A stretch of 45,019 nucleotides of DNA. It comes from Escherichia phage vB_EcoS-22664B1. The DNA lies in sequence record MZ234008.1. One strand, 5' to 3'. Below the pieces are notes generated by a model. The model saw only the letters and a list, made by a program, of their open reading frames with translations. It did no database searches and was not told the DNA's origin. Position numbers and translations under genes: made by a program. This document shows positions 1-44,940 of the stretch, one piece after another. Position 1 is the stretch's first letter, and each line of letters opens with the position of its first letter.

Positions 1-74
1 ATGGTGAGTGAAAAATGCAGTTTGCAGTTACAGCAGATAGGGATCGGCTTTTTCATACGCATGATTAATATTGG

Positions 75-103
75 TTGCATTCAGCCTAGCACCCTGCTAG
101 ATT
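75..103 (+). promoter_or_regulatory. putative sigma70-like promoter for left-end genes (-35 TTGCAT, 17-nt spacer, -10 TAGATT) flanked by two TTGGTTGCA copies
   Basis: Motif copies at 71-79 and 102-110; hexamers read directly. Confidence 0.35.
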
Positions 104-131
104 GGTTGCACACCAACATGAGGACTGAACA

Positions 132-437
132 ATGAGAGCATTAATCTGGAAATACTCACGGGCAATAGCGAAGCTGGACGAAGCGAAAAACACAAACGGC
201 AACGTAGACTATGCGCGCCAGTTTGCGGCACGGGCACACCAACACATCATGAGTGCGCTCGACGATATGGACGCCAGCATGGATGACCTGGGTCCGCTGC
301 GTAAGGCTATCCATGAATACGCGCTGGCATTCTCCCGTGAGCGCCTGGCCTATCGCTTCGGTATTGGCGATAAGGCAGTGACAAACGTCGCCCGGATTAA
401 AGCACAGCGCGAACTATTCGCCCAGCTTGCGAAATAA
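132..437 (+). CDS. hypothetical protein (101 aa)
   Basis: Intact ORF with GAGGA RBS-like sequence upstream of ATG; downstream of putative promoter at 75-103. No recognisable motif. Confidence 0.55.
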   Translation: MRALIWKYSRAIAKLDEAKNTNGNVDYARQFAARAHQHIMSALDDMDASMDDLGPLRKAIHEYALAFSRERLAYRFGIGDKAVTNVARIKAQRELFAQLAK

Positions 438-3470: not shown

Positions 3471-4668
3471 ATGCACCCGCAAACTAAAATTACCGACGAG
3501 CAATTGATCGCTGAATTGCAATCTGGCACTACCTCGAAAGATATTGCGAAGAAATACGGCATTGCCCTTCGAAATGTCTATATGCGCAAAGCCCGCCTGT
3601 CGAAGAAAGGCATTGGTCACGGTAACGATGCCGTAATCCGTAAGCGCGTTGCCGATGGCTTCGGCGTTAAGCGTGTATCAGCCCTGGTGCGCGGCAATGG
3701 CGAAGAGGTCATGTCCTGGGTCATCACCGAGCAAGACAAGGAGCGCCAGCTTGAAGCAATGCGCGCCGTTGTCGAGGGCATGAATAGCGAAATCACACCG
3801 GCAGCACCAGTGAGCGCTCCGCCAGTCCCGATCCAGGCGCTTGACCTGCTTAACCTGTATACCGTGTCGGACTTCCACCTGGGAATGTTGGCGTGGGGCG
3901 AGGAGACTGGCGAGGACTGGGATATGGCAATCGCTGAAGACCTGTTCTACCGCTGGTTTGTCGAAGCCTTCGCCCGCGCACCGGACGCTGGAAGACCTGT
4001 TCTACCGCTGGTTTGTCGAAGCCTTCGCCCGCGCACCGGACGCTGGCACTGCCGTAATCAATATTCTCGGTGATATGGCGCATTTTGACAGCCTCGACGC
4101 CGTCACGCCAGCCAGTGGTCACGTACTGGACGCAGATACCCGCTACCAGAAACTGGTCCGCTACATGATTCGCATGGTGCGCAACGTGGTTGAACTGGCG
4201 CTGCAAAAACACCATAAGGTCAAACTGTTAATCGTCCAGGGTAATCATGATGAGTCCGGTATGATTTGGCTGGCTGAGATGTTCAATACCCTGTACGAGA
4301 ACGAGCCGCGCGTTGATGTGGACACGTCCCCGGACGTTTACAAAATGGTGCAGCACGGTAAAACAACGCTGTTCTTCCACCACGGACACAAAGCACGCTT
4401 TGACGCCATCGAACCGGTCATGATTTCTAAATTCAGACAGGCTTTCGGGTCCAGTGAGTACAGCTACGCGCACGTGGGCCACTTGCACCACCAGAAGATT
4501 GTTGAATCCCGCAACATGATTGTTGAACAGCACCGGACCCTTGCCGCGAAAGACGCATATGCGAGCCGCGGCGGTTGGATGTCTGGTCGTAGTGCTAACG
4601 TCATCACCTATAGCGCCAACTACGGCGAAGTAGCGCGCTTAACCATTAGCCCGGAAATGTTGAAATGA
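3471..4668 (+). pseudogene. HTH domain + calcineurin-like metallophosphoesterase gene, split by a 55-bp tandem duplication (frameshift)
   Basis: N-terminal HTH-like segment; metallophosphoesterase motifs SDFHLG, GDMAHFD, GNHDE, HHGH, GHLHH. ORFs 3471..4073 and 3841..4668 are the same gene in two frames; removing one 55-bp copy (3936-3990 or 3991-4045) restores one ORF of about 380 aa. Confidence 0.6.
3936..4045. repeat. perfect tandem duplication, 2 x 55 bp
   Basis: Unit gaagacctgttctaccgctggtttgtcgaagccttcgcccgcgcaccggacgctg occurs twice in tandem; cgctg microhomology at the junction. Confidence 0.9.
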
Positions 4669-16378: not shown

Positions 16379-16720
16379 TGAAGCGGGACAAAACGGGACG
16401 TCCCGCTTTGTCCCGTTTTGTCCCGCCACCTGCAAAACTGCATACCTACTCACTTTCATTGCATAAACTCAAAGCGGGACGAGCGGGACGTCCCGATCCG
16501 TCCCGCCCCCTAAATGTGCATACCTATTCAGATTTCGTGCATAAAACAAACGGGACAGAAAGCGGGACAAACATGGGGCGGGACAAAGCGGGACAGCACC
16601 CCGTCCCCGTCAGTGCTGCCGCGGGTTTCAGCCGATCGGGACAAGCGGGACAAACCCCAGTCTTTCAGACTAGACGGGGGTCAATGGCCCCCCTCGTCTG
16701 AGACTGAATAAGGTTTGTTT
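16378..16720. repeat. non-coding repeat region A: GGGAC palindromes, GCGGGACA iterons, TGCATA(A) repeats and conserved GC hairpin
   Basis: GCGGGACA at 16383, 16562, 16578, 16588, 16645; palindrome centred on GGGACGTCCC near 16397; about 165 bp (16548-16710) is about 85% identical to 44770-44937. Confidence 0.85.
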
Positions 16721-19456: not shown

Positions 19457-20056
19457 ATGGCGCAAGGTACAATCACACTAACGAACGGAAGTAAGACCGT
19501 CACGGGCGCGGGAACGGCGTTCCTGAGCGAGATCGGGAAGGTCCGCGTATTTGCCCGCATCGACGGCAACGACTACACCGGTAAAATCACAGCATTCAAC
19601 TCTGACACCGTCATCACCCTGGTGGATAACTGGGCCGGACCGACAAAAGCCGGTGCCGCCTACGAGCTAATCGAAGCGCACGACCCGCGATCAAACGAAT
19701 GGCCCTATTACTGGCACATGCAATTGCAGGGCGGCGGCGACGTGCAATTGGCTTTCCGGTCGGAGGAATTGCAATTCGGTAACGGCTACGGGCAGAACAT
19801 CGCGGACGGCCCGAACGCTGAGACGAAACAGTTCCCCGTGCAATTCATCGGACTGACTACGGACAAGTGGTGTGACCCTAAACTGGTGTACAACTTCCTT
19901 CGCGGGCACTTCGTCAAGCCGTTTGTCGTCACCGCGCCGGATGGCGAAACAGGTTTATTCGTGGTCGAGCGTTCGAGCTTGTCGTACACTGACAACGGAC
20001 ACTACACGGCAACTGTATCAGCCACCCTTAAGACTGCTATTGGATTCGTAAGATGA
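19457..20056 (+). CDS. minor tail protein (lambda M-like position)
   Basis: 199-aa ORF directly after tape measure; by synteny. Confidence 0.5.
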   Translation: MAQGTITLTNGSKTVTGAGTAFLSEIGKVRVFARIDGNDYTGKITAFNSDTVITLVDNWAGPTKAGAAYELIEAHDPRSNEWPYYWHMQLQGGGDVQLAFRSEELQFGNGYGQNIADGPNAETKQFPVQFIGLTTDKWCDPKLVYNFLRGHFVKPFVVTAPDGETGLFVVERSSLSYTDNGHYTATVSATLKTAIGFVR

Positions 20057-26932: not shown

Positions 26933-28975
26933 ATGGCAGCGGGTACACTATCCGTAACGAATAACAGCACCGCGGTGACTGGAGACGGCACAACGCTTAC
27001 CGCGCTGAAGGCTGGCGACTTCCTGTCGCTGGTAGTAGGGCAAGTCCCTTACACTATTGCTATTGCATCCATTGAGAGCGACACCGCGCTTACACTGGCG
27101 CTGCCGTTCGATGGCCCAACGGCAACCGGCCTCGCATGGGATAGCGTGGCGCGCGATACCATGTCCCTTGCAACGATGGGCGTAACCGTCCAGGCGCAGA
27201 AAGCACTACGCTTGATGATCGCGGATGAAAACAACTGGCGTGCAATCTTCGGCGACGCTGAAGAAGTCACGGTAACGCTGCCAAACGGGCAAGTTATGCA
27301 GGGAATGTCATGGGGCTACCTGTCATCCTTGTTGAAGGAAGTAGACCCCGTCGAAATGCGCGACCTGCAACAACAAGCCGCCGCATCGGAAGCCGCCGCG
27401 CTGGTGTCGCGCAATGAGGCCGAAGGCTTCAAGAACGATGCCAATGCCATCAAGACGCAGACCGACCAAATCAAGACTGACACGCAGGCAATCCACGACG
27501 CCACCAATACGATCAAGACGCAGACCGACCAGATTAAGACCGATACGCAGTCTATCAAGGACCAGACCGACCAGATTAAGACGGATACTGGCGTTATTCG
27601 CGATGAAGCCAATACTGCGAAGACTGACGCGCAAGCCGCCAGCACTGCCGCGCAGGGATTTCGCGATCAGGCCGAAGAATGGGCGCAAAGCGTAAACGCG
27701 GATAATCTGCTAACTAAATCCGGCAACCTTGCAGGCGTTGCCGATGTGCAGACGTCGCGCACCAACCTCGAACTGGGGGAGGGTAACGAGCCTATTTTTA
27801 AGGGTGCTCTCGCTGTTAAATCAGCCCCCGACACCGTATCGGCACAGGGCGGAATGTTCCAGTCTAAGCTAAAGAATAGCAACGGTGAGGACGTGGTAAC
27901 GACGCAAAGCTACGCAGAAACACAACTAGGGACCGGAAAGCACACGATCGGCGTAATCACGCCTTCGGGGGCACATTACTATCAACTCGACGTCGAAGGT
28001 AACTTTAACGGATTCAAGCGCCTGTCGTCTGCGCAGGGTGGCGAATTACTTCTGAACGGCGTCGATAGTAACACCGTGCAGCTACTGTCGCTTAACCCAC
28101 CAAAGCCGAACGACTATACCGGATTCACGCGGTATAACTGGCAAAATAGCGCGGTGTTTACCGGGCCGATTCGTCAGGGAGGGACGGGGCTTGAAGCCTA
28201 TGAGGTCTACGTCCTGAATGCTGGCGTGGCGGAATGGCGCTACCGGTTTAGACCCGATGGAAAGATGTCCGCCAGACGACTTATCGCCGAAGGTTTCCAG
28301 ACCGGCTGGGACCAGCCTAACAACTACGGGGACAGCGGTGTGTGGCTATCTGACGTCGGAAATAACGACGGCGGCTGGGTTCCTGCAATCTCCTGGCAGT
28401 CCCAATCAACCGGCGGTTACCCTATCCGCGCCACGTGGGGGCTTATCTCTCAGGGCACGGCGAACTGGCCCCGTGCGGCATTGCGATGCCGAGGGGATGG
28501 CGAAAACTGGACAAACTTCGAGTTCGTCGTTAACAGTTGCGATATCCAGGTCAGCGGTACATTCGGCGCGTACACATTTTCCAAAGCGCCTACGTCCGAC
28601 CGTGACCTGAAGCACGATATTAAGTACACGGAAGGGAAAGAAAGCTACGATCGAGTGATGCAGTGGCTTCCCACAATGTTTAAGTATAAAGGGTCGGAAA
28701 TCCAGCGCTATGGCCTTATCGCGCAGGACCTGGTGAAAATCGATCCGCAATACGTGAAGATTATCCCCGGCGCACTTAAAAACCCGGACCTCGTAGGGAC
28801 TGAAGGATTCAAAGCCGAAGACGGCGACTACTACGACGACACGCTGGCACTTGACAGCAACGTCATGTTAACAGATATGGCGTGCGCGATGGTCTTCATG
28901 GGGCGTAAAGTGGAAGATATGCAGAAAGAACTGGAGGAATTGAAAGCTGCCGTAGCGGCACTGACCAAAGCATAA
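26933..28975 (+). CDS. tail fibre with C-terminal intramolecular chaperone (peptidase S74-like) domain
   Basis: C-terminus SDRDLKHDIKY...YGLIAQDLVKIDPQYV matches the auto-cleaving chaperone domain seen in T5 L-shaped fibres and endosialidases; central TDQIKTDTQ repeats; start MAAGTLSV with GAGGA RBS-like sequence. Confidence 0.8.
   Translation: MAAGTLSVTNNSTAVTGDGTTLTALKAGDFLSLVVGQVPYTIAIASIESDTALTLALPFDGPTATGLAWDSVARDTMSLATMGVTVQAQKALRLMIADENNWRAIFGDAEEVTVTLPNGQVMQGMSWGYLSSLLKEVDPVEMRDLQQQAAASEAAALVSRNEAEGFKNDANAIKTQTDQIKTDTQAIHDATNTIKTQTDQIKTDTQSIKDQTDQIKTDTGVIRDEANTAKTDAQAASTAAQGFRDQAEEWAQSVNADNLLTKSGNLAGVADVQTSRTNLELGEGNEPIFKGALAVKSAPDTVSAQGGMFQSKLKNSNGEDVVTTQSYAETQLGTGKHTIGVITPSGAHYYQLDVEGNFNGFKRLSSAQGGELLLNGVDSNTVQLLSLNPPKPNDYTGFTRYNWQNSAVFTGPIRQGGTGLEAYEVYVLNAGVAEWRYRFRPDGKMSARRLIAEGFQTGWDQPNNYGDSGVWLSDVGNNDGGWVPAISWQSQSTGGYPIRATWGLISQGTANWPRAALRCRGDGENWTNFEFVVNSCDIQVSGTFGAYTFSKAPTSDRDLKHDIKYTEGKESYDRVMQWLPTMFKYKGSEIQRYGLIAQDLVKIDPQYVKIIPGALKNPDLVGTEGFKAEDGDYYDDTLALDSNVMLTDMACAMVFMGRKVEDMQKELEELKAAVAALTKA
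27447..27590. repeat. imperfect tandem repeats inside tail fibre gene (cagaccgaccagattaagaccgatacg units)
   Basis: Three to four nucleotide repeats encoding (A/T)IKTQTDQIKTDTQ. Confidence 0.7.
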
Positions 28976-37981: not shown

Positions 37982-37993
37982 TTTTCATTGTCC

Positions 37994-38020
37994 TAATAAA
38001 AAGCCCGCAATAAGCGGGCT
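37994..38020 (-). terminator. rho-independent terminator on - strand (agcccgc ... gcgggct + U-run)
   Basis: On - strand the hairpin is followed by TTTTATT; sits directly after the in-frame stop of the SSB tail frame (38040-38042). Confidence 0.55.
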
Positions 38021-38039
38021 TGAATAGTGGGCTTTGCCC

Positions 38040-38773
38040 TTAACGGCGGCGACGTTTACGTGGTGCTTCGTCTTCGTCGTCGTCGTCCTCGTCTTCGTCA
38101 TCACGACGTTTGGACTTCTTAGCCTTGCGCGGTGCTTCATCTTCGTCATCGTCATCACGACGTTTGGACTTCTTAGCCTTGCGCGGTGCTTCATCTTCGT
38201 CATCGCGTCGCCCAGGTCGTCATCGGAACAAGAAGACCCGCCGCCACCGAAGGAGTCACCATCGTCACGGAAGCGAAGACCCATCAAACCCGCACCTAGA
38301 CCTTTGCCGTTGGTGTTGTTCCACGCCCAAATATCCAGGGACACGTTGCAATAACAACCGGAATAGATTTCCTGGCCTTCGATCTCGTCGCCGTCGATAG
38401 TCAGACCCTGTTCGGTCTGCTTCTCGCCCAGTGACGTTTGGATGTTAGGCTGTTTGAACGATTTGGCGTTGATGTACAACATTCCTTCGAATTCTTCGGT
38501 TACTTCGTCGCGCTCGTCACCGTCGCGAACTGCGCATTCCTTAGAATCCTGGGCGTAGTGGCGGTCCATCCACTTATCGGCGTTCTTCTCGGATTTCAGC
38601 TTGTCGGTAAGCACTGCGCGCGCTGCCGCTTCCACTTTGTCCACCTGCGGATCTTCTTTATCAAGAAGAATCACGGCACGGTATGCCGGTTTTTGTCCAT
38701 CCTGTTTAGGGGTATCACGTTCCCAAATTTTCAGGAAGCATACGCGTACATTTTTCAGGTTGACTTTAGCCAT
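38040..38773 (-). CDS. ssDNA-binding-protein-like (T7 gp2.5 / DUF2815-like) with charged repeat tail; -1 frame discontinuity near 38200-38219
   Basis: Body (start MAKVNLKNVRV, GAGGA RBS-like) is in the ORF-track frame. The C-terminal tail (DDEDEAPRKAKKSKRR x2 then DDEDEDDDDEDEAPRKRRRR) is in another frame ending at TAA 38040-38042; its third module differs from the first two only by synonymous changes in that frame. Confidence 0.5.
38098..38205. repeat. perfect tandem duplication, 2 x 54 bp, inside SSB-like tail
   Basis: Unit tcatcacgacgtttggacttcttagccttgcgcggtgcttcatcttcgtcatcg repeated head-to-tail; a degenerate third copy lies at about 38044-38097. Confidence 0.9.
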
Positions 38774-38836
38774 TTTCATTTCCTCATTTCGCATGTATCG
38801 GGGTTATTGTGAGCCACCCCGTTCGGCTTGGTTGCT

Positions 38837-41014: not shown

Positions 41015-41128
41015 TTAATCTTCACCGCCGAGTTGTCTATAAACCTCGTCCGGGTCGTCGCCTCTTTCTTCGCAGAAGGCGGTGAATGCCGCCCAATTTT
41101 CTGCTATGAAATCGAGCGTGATTCTCAT
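41015..41128 (-). CDS. small hypothetical ORF (37 aa)
   Basis: ATG..TAA ORF between charged-repeat gene and terminator; not in ORF track; weak. Confidence 0.25.
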   Translation of the reverse strand: MRITLDFIAENWAAFTAFCEERGDDPDEVYRQLGGED

Positions 41129-41144
41129 TTCATAGTCCATTATA

Positions 41145-41663
41145 TTAATCTTCTAATTCGAAATAAGTTTCGACGATTGCTTTTAATTCCTGGTGGAACT
41201 CTTCCACGTCGTCATCTTCCAGCTTGGCAACGGATTTAATTTCGAATTCTTCCAGCAGGTCGTCAAATTCGTCGTTTGCGTCGTCGTCATCACCGCCAGC
41301 AATAATAGCGGCATACTGCTTGATTTCGTCGCGCATCTCTTTCAGCGGATCGGCATCTTTCTTGCCTTTACCTTTCGCCGGTGCTTTCTTAGATTTCGCC
41401 GGGGCTTCTTCTTCGTCGTCCGCGTCGTCTTCTTCTACGGCTTCTTTCTTAGCCTTGCCCTTTGCTGGCGCTTTTTTTGTCTTAGCCGGTGCTTCGTCTT
41501 CAGCGTCGTCATCTTCGACTACTTCTTCTTTTGCCTTGCCCTTAGCCGGGGCTTTCTTCGCTTCCTGTTTACCAACGGCAGCGCCAGCAGTTTCATAATG
41601 CTTAGCGATGGTTTCCAGTGCTACTACGCCGCGTGTGATCAGGTTTACGATTTGCTCAAACAT
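41145..41663 (-). CDS. charged-repeat protein (172 aa; repeated DEAPAK-KKAPAKGKAKK modules), first gene of leftward early operon
   Basis: Start MFEQIVNLITRG with GGAGA RBS-like sequence; internal nucleotide repeats 41363-41550 encode alternating acidic/basic modules. Confidence 0.55.
   Translation of the reverse strand: MFEQIVNLITRGVVALETIAKHYETAGAAVGKQEAKKAPAKGKAKEEVVEDDDAEDEAPAKTKKAPAKGKAKKEAVEEDDADDEEEAPAKSKKAPAKGKGKKDADPLKEMRDEIKQYAAIIAGGDDDDANDEFDDLLEEFEIKSVAKLEDDDVEEFHQELKAIVETYFELED
41363..41550. repeat. imperfect tandem repeats (about 66-bp unit, about 2.5 copies) within charged-repeat gene
   Basis: Units containing cttagccggtgcttcgtcttc...gtcgtcatcttc recur; they encode the charged protein repeats. 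Confidence 0.7.
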
Positions 41664-41859
41664 TGTATATCTCCGATTGGTTAAGTTTAGGTGTCGGCAG
41701 TCAACTTCGTCGGTGGCCTTAACATAGTGCCAGGTTACGCGTTCTCCCTTTCGGGTAGTGGACCTGGTTATATAATCACGGTTGGGAATCCTGACACTTC
41801 GATCCGGCCCCTGCGTTGCCCCTCTCCAGTTTGCGTCCTGCATCCTGTCGACGGAGTGA

Positions 41860-41910
41860 ATAATAGATTGGTTGCAGGTGGGGTGTCAACAACTAATTTC
41901 AAAAAAAAAA
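41860..41910 (-). promoter_or_regulatory. putative strong early promoter for leftward operon (-10 TATTAT, 18-nt spacer with TGCAACCAA, -35 TTGACA, upstream A/T tract as UP-like element)
   Basis: On - strand: T10 tract (plus 41901-41910), TTGACA (41889-41884), spacer, TATTAT (41865-41860). Confidence 0.5.
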
Positions 41911-44671: not shown

Positions 44672-44759
44672 ATTTTGCGCGCATTGGTTGCCATTTTGAG
44701 TGTTTTTAGCTGGTCGCATTGGTTGCCGTGTAGTGTAAATATAGTGAATAGTTATGCAG

Positions 44760-44940
44760 TTTTATTGCATAAAGTAAGCGGGACAAAAAGCGGGACAGAC
44801 AGGGGGCGGGACAAGGCGGGACAGCACCCCCGTCCCGCCCCGGATTACGCGGCTTGCGGGGGAGCGGGACAGGCGGGACAAACCCCAGTCTTTCAGACTA
44901 GACGGGGGTCAGTTGGCCCCCTCGTCTGAGACTGCATAAA
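44760..44940. repeat. non-coding repeat region B: GCGGGACA iterons, inverted GGGAC and conserved GC hairpin (homologous to 16548-16710)
   Basis: GCGGGACA at 44778, 44789, 44806, 44816, 44864, 44873; the 3' 60 nt is nearly identical to region A. Confidence 0.85.

What the first reader, a model, noticed from the sequence alone, without database searches (positions are those of the whole stretch)
3936..4045. 55-bp perfect tandem duplication frameshifts an HTH-metallophosphoesterase gene
The 55-nt unit at 3936-3990 is repeated exactly at 3991-4045. Because 55 is not a multiple of 3, the gene splits into ORFs 3471..4073 and 3841..4668, which both translate the repeat as EDLFYRWFVEAFARAPDAG. Deleting one copy restores a single ORF of about 380 aa with an N-terminal HTH-like region and a complete calcineurin-like phosphoesterase motif set. 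A 5-nt microhomology (cgctg) flanks the repeat, consistent with replication slippage. It could be an assembly artefact, a recent inactivating mutation, or a reversible on/off switch.
Basis: seen in the sequence. Interest (0 to 1): 0.7.

Follow-up and report, generated by a model that had tools for sequence, protein, structure and literature searches.

The report
Untrimmed assembler overlap, not a mutation
The perfect 55-bp duplication that seems to break a conserved phage gene is almost certainly a leftover of genome assembly (the 55-base end overlap that SPAdes leaves on circular contigs, moved inside when the record was rotated), so the real phage very probably has an intact gene.

Summary
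Positions 3936-3990 equal 3991-4045 exactly, the gene splits into ORFs 3471..4073 and 3841..4668, and deleting one copy restores a 380-aa HTH + metallophosphoesterase protein.

It is very probably an artefact. The window is a Dhillonvirus genome, almost certainly vB_EcoS-22664B1 (MZ234008, 45,019 bp; Loose et al. 2021, assembled with SPAdes). It equals its sister isolate MZ234014 rotated by 30 nt, plus this duplication and four small differences.

- All 167 matching phage records are single-copy, and the junction is absent from IMG/VR, GTDB genomes and JGI metagenomes.
- MZ234009, an unrelated T7-like phage from the same host batch, carries an internal perfect duplication of exactly 55 nt that splits its endolysin. 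That record is also rotated to start at an ATG.
- MZ234010 has a 51-nt end overlap. Four other records of the study have exact 127-nt end overlaps.
- 55 and 127 are SPAdes k values, and such overlaps are documented artefacts.
- The 'cgctg' microhomology is out of register (54 nt, not 55), so slippage is not supported.

The true genome is probably 44,964 bp with the gene intact. Interest is low, apart from flagging erroneous database records.

The parts
3936..3990 (+). Copy 1 of the 55-nt unit. Inferred to be the 3' end (last k=55 bases) of the original SPAdes contig.
   Evidence: Identical to 3991-4045. In frame with the upstream part of the gene, covering codons E156-A173 plus 1 nt.
3991..4045 (+). 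Copy 2 of the 55-nt unit. Inferred to be the 5' end (first k=55 bases) of the original SPAdes contig. The junction 3990|3991 is where the contig ends were joined when the record was re-opened.
   Evidence: No phage record has this junction as one contiguous piece. It has 0 hits in IMG/VR, GTDB genomes and JGI metagenomes.
3471..4073 (+). Apparent N-terminal ORF (200 aa): LuxR/GerE-like HTH, a linker, metallophosphoesterase motif I (DFH), then 26 out-of-frame residues and a stop.
   Evidence: Weak Pfam GerE/HTH_28 hits at residues 11-46. The exact 200-aa product is on record nowhere.
3841..4668 (+). Apparent C-terminal ORF (275 aa as the longest ORF). Only the part from 3991 onward is genuine coding sequence, holding motifs II-V of the metallophosphoesterase.
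3471..4668 (+). The real gene. After removing 55 nt it is 1143 nt / 380 aa, an HTH + calcineurin-like metallophosphoesterase (PHROG 704, 'DNA repair exonuclease'). It lies between the lysis genes and the small/large terminase genes.
   Evidence: Repaired ORF of 380 aa. PHROG 704 E=5.9e-161 over the full length. Single ORFs of 376-380 aa in 3708 homologues, of which the 120 listed are 75-98% identical. Annotated as one 1143-nt CDS in MZ234014, MZ234016, MZ234026 and MZ234029.
1..135 (+). The record starts exactly at the ATG of the first small ORF, which shows the sequence was re-opened (rotated) after assembly.
   Evidence: The window's first 30 nt equal the last 30 nt of MZ234014. Sister records MZ234009, MZ234011 and MZ234012 also begin at a CDS start at position 1.

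Best explanation
The duplication is a record-construction artefact, not a feature of the phage. The genome, most probably vB_EcoS-22664B1 (GenBank MZ234008), was assembled with SPAdes at a final k of 55. For a circular or circularly permuted genome, SPAdes outputs a linear contig whose first and last k bases are identical. The contig was then re-opened so that the record starts at the ATG of a small ORF, but the overlap was not trimmed first. The two copies of the 55-mer were therefore joined head to tail inside the record, at 3990|3991. That point happens to lie between motifs I and II of a conserved HTH-metallophosphoesterase gene. Because 55 is not a multiple of 3, the gene appears frameshifted. 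The real genome is then 44,964 bp and carries one intact 380-aa gene. Shown here: the exact repeat, its uniqueness to this record, the rotation of the record, and the same signatures in sister records. Inferred: that the window is MZ234008, and that k=55 was used for its batch.
For: (1) The repeat is an exact 55+55 nt with no in-register flanking homology beyond 1 nt.
(2) With one copy removed, the window equals MZ234014 (vB_EcoS-101114B2) rotated by 30 nt. Only 2 SNPs, one repeat-length change and one homopolymer indel remain over 44,964 nt.
(3) Table 1 of Loose et al. 2021 lists Dhillonvirus 22664B1 at 45,019 bp (MZ234008), exactly the window length. The methods name SPAdes 3.13.0/3.14.1. 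That accession is missing from the searchable collection.
(4) All 167 matching phage records are single-copy. None of 118 has the junction in one piece. The junction has 0 hits in IMG/VR, GTDB genomes and JGI metagenomes.
(5) MZ234009 is an unrelated T7-like Kayfunavirus with the adjacent accession, isolated on the same host, and also rotated to begin at an ATG. It has an internal perfect tandem duplication of exactly 55 nt at 19805-19914 that splits its endolysin. Its relatives match over 746 nt against 801, so they are single-copy.
(6) MZ234010 has a 51-nt end overlap. MZ234016, MZ234026, MZ234029 and MZ234048 have exact 127-nt end overlaps. So 7 of the 10 records of this study that I checked retain assembler overlaps.
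(7) Published reports document this. [quoted passage not shown] 127-bp repeats were removed after SPAdes 3.13 (PMC8104045). metaSPAdes contig ends overlapped by 55 bp (PMC8851603).
(8) The gene is under strong conservation: mean column identity is 89% across 17 homologues at 74-97% identity, and all catalytic motifs are invariant.
Against: No raw reads or assembly graph could be inspected, so the artefact is inferred, not observed. The identification of the window as MZ234008 rests on length, genus, study and near-identity to a sister isolate, not on the record itself. Sister records show k=127 overlaps, so the study did not use one k throughout; a k=55 batch has to be assumed. The 55-nt repeat in MZ234009 and the 51-nt overlap in MZ234010 support that assumption. 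Real tandem duplications without microhomology do occur.
Confidence: 0.93

Rival explanations
1. It is a real, recent 55-bp tandem duplication in the phage stock that inactivates the HTH-metallophosphoesterase gene. The gene would then be dispensable for plaque formation on E. coli DSM22664.
For: The window differs from its sister isolate by a few other genuine-looking changes, for example a T323A substitution in the 680-aa tail-fibre-like protein, so it is an independent isolate that could carry private mutations. Nothing in the sequence alone forbids a duplication.
Against: The length equals a SPAdes k value. An unrelated phage of the same batch has a perfect duplication of the identical length in another conserved gene. 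In-register microhomology is only 1 nt. All relatives are single-copy. The gene is highly conserved. Split as in the record, motif I would sit on one polypeptide and motifs II-V on another.
Confidence: 0.05
2. It is a reversible on/off (phase-variable) switch: copy-number change of the 55-nt unit toggles expression of the gene within the phage population.
For: A perfect tandem repeat can in principle be lost again by recombination between the copies, which would restore the frame.
Against: No copy-number variation is seen at this site in 167 related phage genomes or in the homologues from metagenomes. The unit is a unique coding sequence, not a repeat-prone tract. All the evidence for an artefact applies here as well.
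Confidence: 0.01
3. The gene is naturally split, or is expressed by programmed frameshifting, in this lineage.
For: PHROGs holds separate families that match only the N-terminal part (phrog_20703, residues 5-199) and only the C-terminal part (phrog_20762, residues 264-378). So split annotations of this gene do exist in some phage records.
Against: Those fragment boundaries do not coincide with this site. The 99.97%-identical sister genome has an uninterrupted 1143-nt CDS. The split here is created only by the exact duplicate. No slippery-site logic applies to a +55 insertion.
Confidence: 0.01

Closest known systems
SPAdes / de Bruijn-graph k-mer end overlap on circular or circularly permuted genomes (55, 77, 99 or 127 bp), a documented assembly artefact (PMC8483715, PMC5923482, PMC8104045)
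   Same: An exact repeat whose length equals an assembler k value. It has two copies only, is unique to the record, and falls at an arbitrary position relative to genes. The same pipeline left 127-nt and 51-nt overlaps at the ends of sister records.
   Different: Here the two copies are internal and adjacent instead of terminal, because the contig was re-opened at a new start before the overlap was trimmed. It therefore looks like a tandem duplication and a frameshift.
Genuine tandem duplications by replication slippage or illegitimate recombination in phage genomes
   Same: Head-to-tail arrangement with perfect identity, as expected for a very recent event.
   Different: There is no in-register microhomology; the cgctg pentamers are 54 nt apart. 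The length coincides with k=55. The same length recurs in an unrelated genome of the same batch.
PHROG 704 'DNA repair exonuclease': HTH + calcineurin-like metallophosphoesterase of Dhillonvirus, Jersey-like Salmonella phages and relatives
   Same: The repaired 380-aa protein matches the family end to end (E=5.9e-161). It has all five metallophosphoesterase motifs and sits in the same position upstream of the terminase genes as in the sister genomes.
   Different: In this record the ORF is interrupted by the extra 55 nt. The family's biochemical function is not established. Pfam Metallophos hits fall below the curated cut-offs, and the fold matches to Mre11 and purple acid phosphatase are weak and come from a low-confidence model.
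Contingency loci / phase-variable repeat tracts
   Same: A repeat whose copy number would set the reading frame.
   Different: The unit is 55 nt long and unique, with exactly two copies. No copy-number polymorphism is seen in any relative.

Membership tests
Assembler (SPAdes) k-mer overlap artefact | The repeat is 100% identical and its length equals a SPAdes k value (55/77/99/127) | tested here: met
   55/55 identical. A 55-bp SPAdes overlap is documented in PMC8483715 and PMC8851603. That SPAdes' default k set is 21, 33, 55 (plus 77, 99, 127 for longer reads) is my own knowledge.
Assembler (SPAdes) k-mer overlap artefact | The genome was assembled with SPAdes and represents a circular or permuted molecule | tested here: met
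   The methods of Loose et al. 2021 name SPAdes 3.13.0/3.14.1. The window and MZ234014 are circular permutations of each other. This depends on the inference that the window is MZ234008.
Assembler (SPAdes) k-mer overlap artefact | The record was re-opened or rotated after assembly, so that contig ends become internal and adjacent | tested here: met
   Window position 1 is the ATG of the first ORF, and the record is offset by 30 nt from MZ234014. Sister records MZ234009, MZ234011 and MZ234012 start at a CDS start at position 1.
Assembler (SPAdes) k-mer overlap artefact | The same signature appears in other, unrelated genomes from the same pipeline | tested here: met
   MZ234009 has an internal 55-nt perfect duplication. 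MZ234010 has a 51-nt end overlap. MZ234016, MZ234026, MZ234029 and MZ234048 have 127-nt end overlaps.
Assembler (SPAdes) k-mer overlap artefact | The repeat is absent from close relatives and from independent assemblies | tested here: met
   A Logan contig of a related phage carries an intact 380-aa gene.
Assembler (SPAdes) k-mer overlap artefact | No read spans the two-copy junction together with both unique flanks, and coverage is not doubled | not testable with these tools
Look-ups of window-specific proteins found no read-derived assembly of this phage.
Slippage-generated real tandem duplication | A short direct repeat (microhomology) at both ends, in register with the duplicated length | tested here: not met
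   In-register extension is 0 nt on the left and 1 nt on the right. The cgctg copies are 54 nt apart.
Slippage-generated real tandem duplication | The duplication is present in the DNA of the phage stock | not testable with these tools
   This needs reads or PCR.
Phase-variable contingency locus | Copy-number polymorphism of the unit among close relatives or within populations | tested here: not met
   All 167 related records are single-copy.
Calcineurin-like metallophosphoesterase superfamily (the underlying gene) | Motifs I-V (DxH, GD, GNH[DE], H, GHxH) present and conserved | tested here: met
   D134/H136, G182-D183, G239-N-H-D242, H286/H288 and G318-H-L-H321 are invariant in 17 homologues.
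Calcineurin-like metallophosphoesterase superfamily (the underlying gene) | Profile match above Pfam's curated threshold, and a metallophosphoesterase fold | tested here: inconclusive
   PF12850 scores 22.1 bits (cut-off 27) and PF00149 scores 20 bits (cut-off 21.5). The AF2 model has mean pLDDT 58.5. The best Foldseek hits are Mre11 and purple acid phosphatases, but with TM about 0.3.

The most novel reading that the evidence does not exclude
The duplication is physically present in phage 22664B1. A spontaneous 55-bp duplication would then have knocked out a strongly conserved HTH-metallophosphoesterase ('DNA repair exonuclease', PHROG 704) without preventing isolation and propagation. That would show the gene is dispensable on this host, and possibly that its loss was selected, for example to escape a host defence that senses it.
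Probability: 0.04. Interest if true: 0.3.

Novelty: not a real feature. Interest (0 to 1): 0.06.

Why it matters
Biologically it matters little: the phage almost certainly has an ordinary intact gene. It matters for data quality.
- A public 'complete genome' very probably contains 55 spurious bases that split a conserved gene into two false hypothetical proteins.
- The same fault splits the endolysin in MZ234009.
- Five further records of the same study carry untrimmed 51- or 127-nt end redundancies.
- Such artefacts inflate genome lengths, create false pseudogenes and fragment protein families, and can be mistaken for direct terminal repeats or for mutations.

A practical screening rule follows: an exact tandem duplication whose length equals 55, 77, 99 or 127 nt in a short-read assembly should be treated as an artefact until reads prove otherwise.

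Tried and rejected
- Exact-match scans for the 34-nt junction in IMG/VR, GTDB genomes and JGI metagenomes found nothing.
- Look-ups of the truncated 200-aa product and of the window-specific tail-fibre-like protein (T323 variant) found no record, so no independent assembly of this phage's reads could be located.
- The 254-aa protein look-up hit a Logan contig (SRR22877836) with an intact 380-aa gene. That protein is identical in the sister phage, so the contig is not specific to this phage.
- Accession MZ234008 is not in the searchable collection.
- The cgctg-mediated slippage model was rejected because the pentamers are 54 nt apart, not 55.
- The sequence search against PDB gave only spurious hits to designed repeat proteins.
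- NCBIfam gave only sub-threshold HTH hits.
- The AF2 model was of low confidence (pLDDT 58.5), and Foldseek gave weak metallophosphoesterase and LuxR-HTH hits that I use only as consistency checks.
- Rfam found nothing in the window.
- I considered a real 55-nt direct terminal repeat. I rejected it because the site lies inside a conserved ORF, and the sister genome is a plain circular permutation without it.

Full report
**1. The observation.** The 55-nt unit at 3936-3990 is repeated exactly at 3991-4045. Tandem Repeats Finder reports the same array, with period 55, at 3932-4046.
- The mechanical ORF list shows 3471..4073 (200 aa) and 3841..4668 (275 aa).
- ORF1 reads copy 1, and ORF2 reads copy 2, as EDLFYRWFVEAFARAPDAG.
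- Deleting one copy gives a single 380-aa ORF. Codon E156 starts exactly at 3936, and the unit covers 18 codons plus one base.
- One detail of the finding does not hold. The 'cgctg' pentamers at 3932-3936 and 3986-3990 are 54 nt apart, not 55.
- In register with the 55-nt period, identity extends 0 nt to the left and 1 nt to the right. Slippage between those pentamers would have produced a 54-nt, in-frame duplication, which is not what is seen.

**2. What the window is.** The region matches 167 phage records, nearly all of them Escherichia Dhillonvirus genomes.
- The best match is MZ234014 (vB_EcoS-101114B2) at 99.9% identity, over a span exactly 55 nt shorter.
- Whole-genome comparison shows that the window is MZ234014 rotated by 30 nt.
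- With one repeat copy removed, the two genomes differ over 44,964 nt only by two SNPs (10658, 27899), an indel pair inside a 54-bp repeat (38094 and 38204-38205), and an A10/A11 homopolymer (about 41900).
- A full-text search for '101114B2' led to Loose et al. 2021 (PMC8614997). Its Table 1 lists a Dhillonvirus '22664B1, 45019 bp, MZ234008', which is exactly the window's length.
- Its methods state that MiSeq (600-cycle) reads were trimmed with prinseq and assembled with SPAdes 3.13.0/3.14.1.
- MZ234008 is the only one of these accessions missing from the searchable collection. I infer that the window is that record.

**3. The duplication is unique to this record.** None of 118 phage records that match a 70-nt probe across the junction has it in one piece.
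- The 34-nt junction has no exact match in IMG/VR, in one genome per GTDB species, or in JGI metagenomes.
- The truncated 200-aa product is not on record anywhere.
- The repaired protein has 3708 homologues. The 120 listed are 75-98% identical, and almost all are single proteins of 376-380 aa from Dhillonvirus, Jersey-like Salmonella phages, Raoultella phage RP180 and metagenomes.
- In 17 of these, the five metallophosphoesterase motifs are invariant.

**4. The decisive comparison: sister records from the same pipeline.** I fetched nine other genomes of the same study and searched each for identical ends and for perfect internal tandem duplications with periods of 20-1000 nt.

| Record | Finding |
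|---|---|
| Window (inferred MZ234008) | Internal perfect 55-nt duplication at 3936-4045; record rotated to start at an ATG |
| MZ234009 | Internal perfect 55-nt duplication at 19805-19914; record rotated to start at an ATG |
| MZ234010 | First 51 nt equal last 51 nt |
| MZ234016, MZ234026, MZ234029, MZ234048 | First 127 nt exactly equal last 127 nt |
| MZ234011, MZ234012, MZ234014 | Clean |

- The four records with 127-nt overlaps start at arbitrary positions and in arbitrary orientations, as raw contigs do.
- MZ234009 is vB_EcoP-22664BS1, a T7-like Kayfunavirus unrelated to the window. It was isolated on the same host, DSM22664, and has the adjacent accession number.
- Its record begins at position 1 with the ATG of gp16, so it was clearly re-opened.
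- Its duplication splits the T7-gp3.5-type endolysin into ORFs of 89 and 117 aa. Its close relatives match over 746 nt instead of 801, so they are single-copy.
- Two unrelated phages of one batch, each with a private, perfect, frameshifting duplication of exactly 55 nt in a conserved gene, in records that were both rotated, is not credible as biology. It is what an untrimmed k=55 overlap produces when a contig is re-opened.

**5. Why 55 and 127.** SPAdes writes a circular or circularly permuted genome as a linear contig whose ends overlap by the final k.
- Published phage work reports this directly:
  - Removal of 127-bp terminal repeats after SPAdes 3.13 (PMC8104045).
  - A metaSPAdes contig whose ends overlapped by 55 bp (PMC8851603).
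- That the default k series is 21, 33, 55, extended to 77, 99 and 127 for longer reads, is my own knowledge.
- If a contig X...X (with |X| = k) is cut at a new start and its two parts are swapped without removing one X, the two copies become adjacent. That gives an exact tandem duplication of length k at an arbitrary place.
- Here that place is 3990|3991, inside a gene, and 55 mod 3 = 1 gives the apparent frameshift.

**6. The gene underneath.** The repaired protein matches PHROG 704 ('DNA repair exonuclease') end to end (E=5.9e-161).
- Pfam gives sub-threshold Metallophos, Metallophos_2 and GerE/HTH_28 hits.
- An AlphaFold model from a shallow alignment is of low confidence (pLDDT 58.5). Its best PDB matches are Mre11 and purple acid phosphatases at TM about 0.3, and a DosR/LuxR-type HTH for the N-terminus.
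- I take this only as consistent with the motif evidence.
- If the split were real, motif I would be on one polypeptide and motifs II-V on another, so the enzyme would be dead.

**7. Rivals.** A real recent duplication cannot be excluded without reads, but it requires a coincidence in length with k=55 and with the unrelated MZ234009. It also lacks in-register microhomology (confidence 0.05). A reversible switch, or a naturally split or frameshifted gene, has no support: no relative varies at this site, and the 99.97%-identical sister genome has one uninterrupted 1143-nt CDS.

**8. Verdict.** The feature is not real, with confidence about 0.93. The true genome is probably 44,964 bp. The value of the finding lies in curation, not biology.

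Noticed in passing
window 38094-38205 (minus-strand gene at about 37985..38800, the homologue of the CDS annotated 'gp41' in MZ234014): A 54-bp tandem repeat encodes the unit DDEDEAPRKAKKSKRR. Sister genomes assembled at k=127 end this gene with a conserved tail...DDEDEAPRKRRRR*. Compared with them, the window has an extra 'CG' at 38204-38205 that puts the whole repeat and tail out of frame. MZ234014 has a different 8-nt insertion at the other edge of the repeat. This is probably a second assembly error at a repeat array longer than k=55, but it could be real variation.
   Followed up: partly
L005 (MZ234009) 19805-19914: A perfect 55-nt tandem duplication splits the T7-gp3.5-type endolysin of an unrelated phage from the same study. 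Its relatives are single-copy. It has the same artefact signature as the window.
   Followed up: yes
L002 (MZ234016), L003 (MZ234026), L004 (MZ234029) and L009 (MZ234048) ends; L006 (MZ234010) ends: In the first four deposited 'complete genomes' the first 127 nt are identical to the last 127 nt. In MZ234010 the overlap is 51 nt. These are untrimmed assembler overlaps that inflate the genome lengths.
   Followed up: yes
window 16516-16711 and 44744-44939: Two non-coding modules of about 195 nt are 83-86% identical. Each contains six copies of the motif GCGGGACA(A/G) followed by a GC-rich hairpin (GACGGGGGTCA..GGCCCCCTCGTC). One lies before the tape-measure gene and the other near the end of the early region. 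They could be iteron-like or regulator-binding arrays with a terminator. No Rfam family matches.
   Followed up: partly
window 27899 (ORF 26933..28975, +): This is the only amino-acid substitution between the window and its sister isolate MZ234014: T323 versus A323 in a 680-aa tail-fibre-like protein. The two phages were isolated on different E. coli hosts (DSM22664 and DSM101114), so it may bear on host range.
   Followed up: no
window 41890-41900: An intergenic homopolymer is A10 in the window and A11 in MZ234014. This is either a sequencing or assembly uncertainty or a real length polymorphism.
   Followed up: no
window 41351-41558 and 27449-27583: Further in-frame tandem repeats: an 87-bp unit in 2.5 copies at 75% identity, and a 63-bp unit in 2.1 copies at 77% identity. 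The 63-bp array lies inside the tail-fibre-like ORF 26933..28975. The 87-bp array falls within the equivalent of MZ234014's minus-strand CDS 41066..41764.
   Followed up: no
PHROG families 20703 and 20762: These two separate PHROG families match only residues 5-199 and only residues 264-378 of the same 380-aa protein. Other phage records therefore annotate this gene in pieces, perhaps because of similar sequence or annotation errors elsewhere.
   Followed up: no
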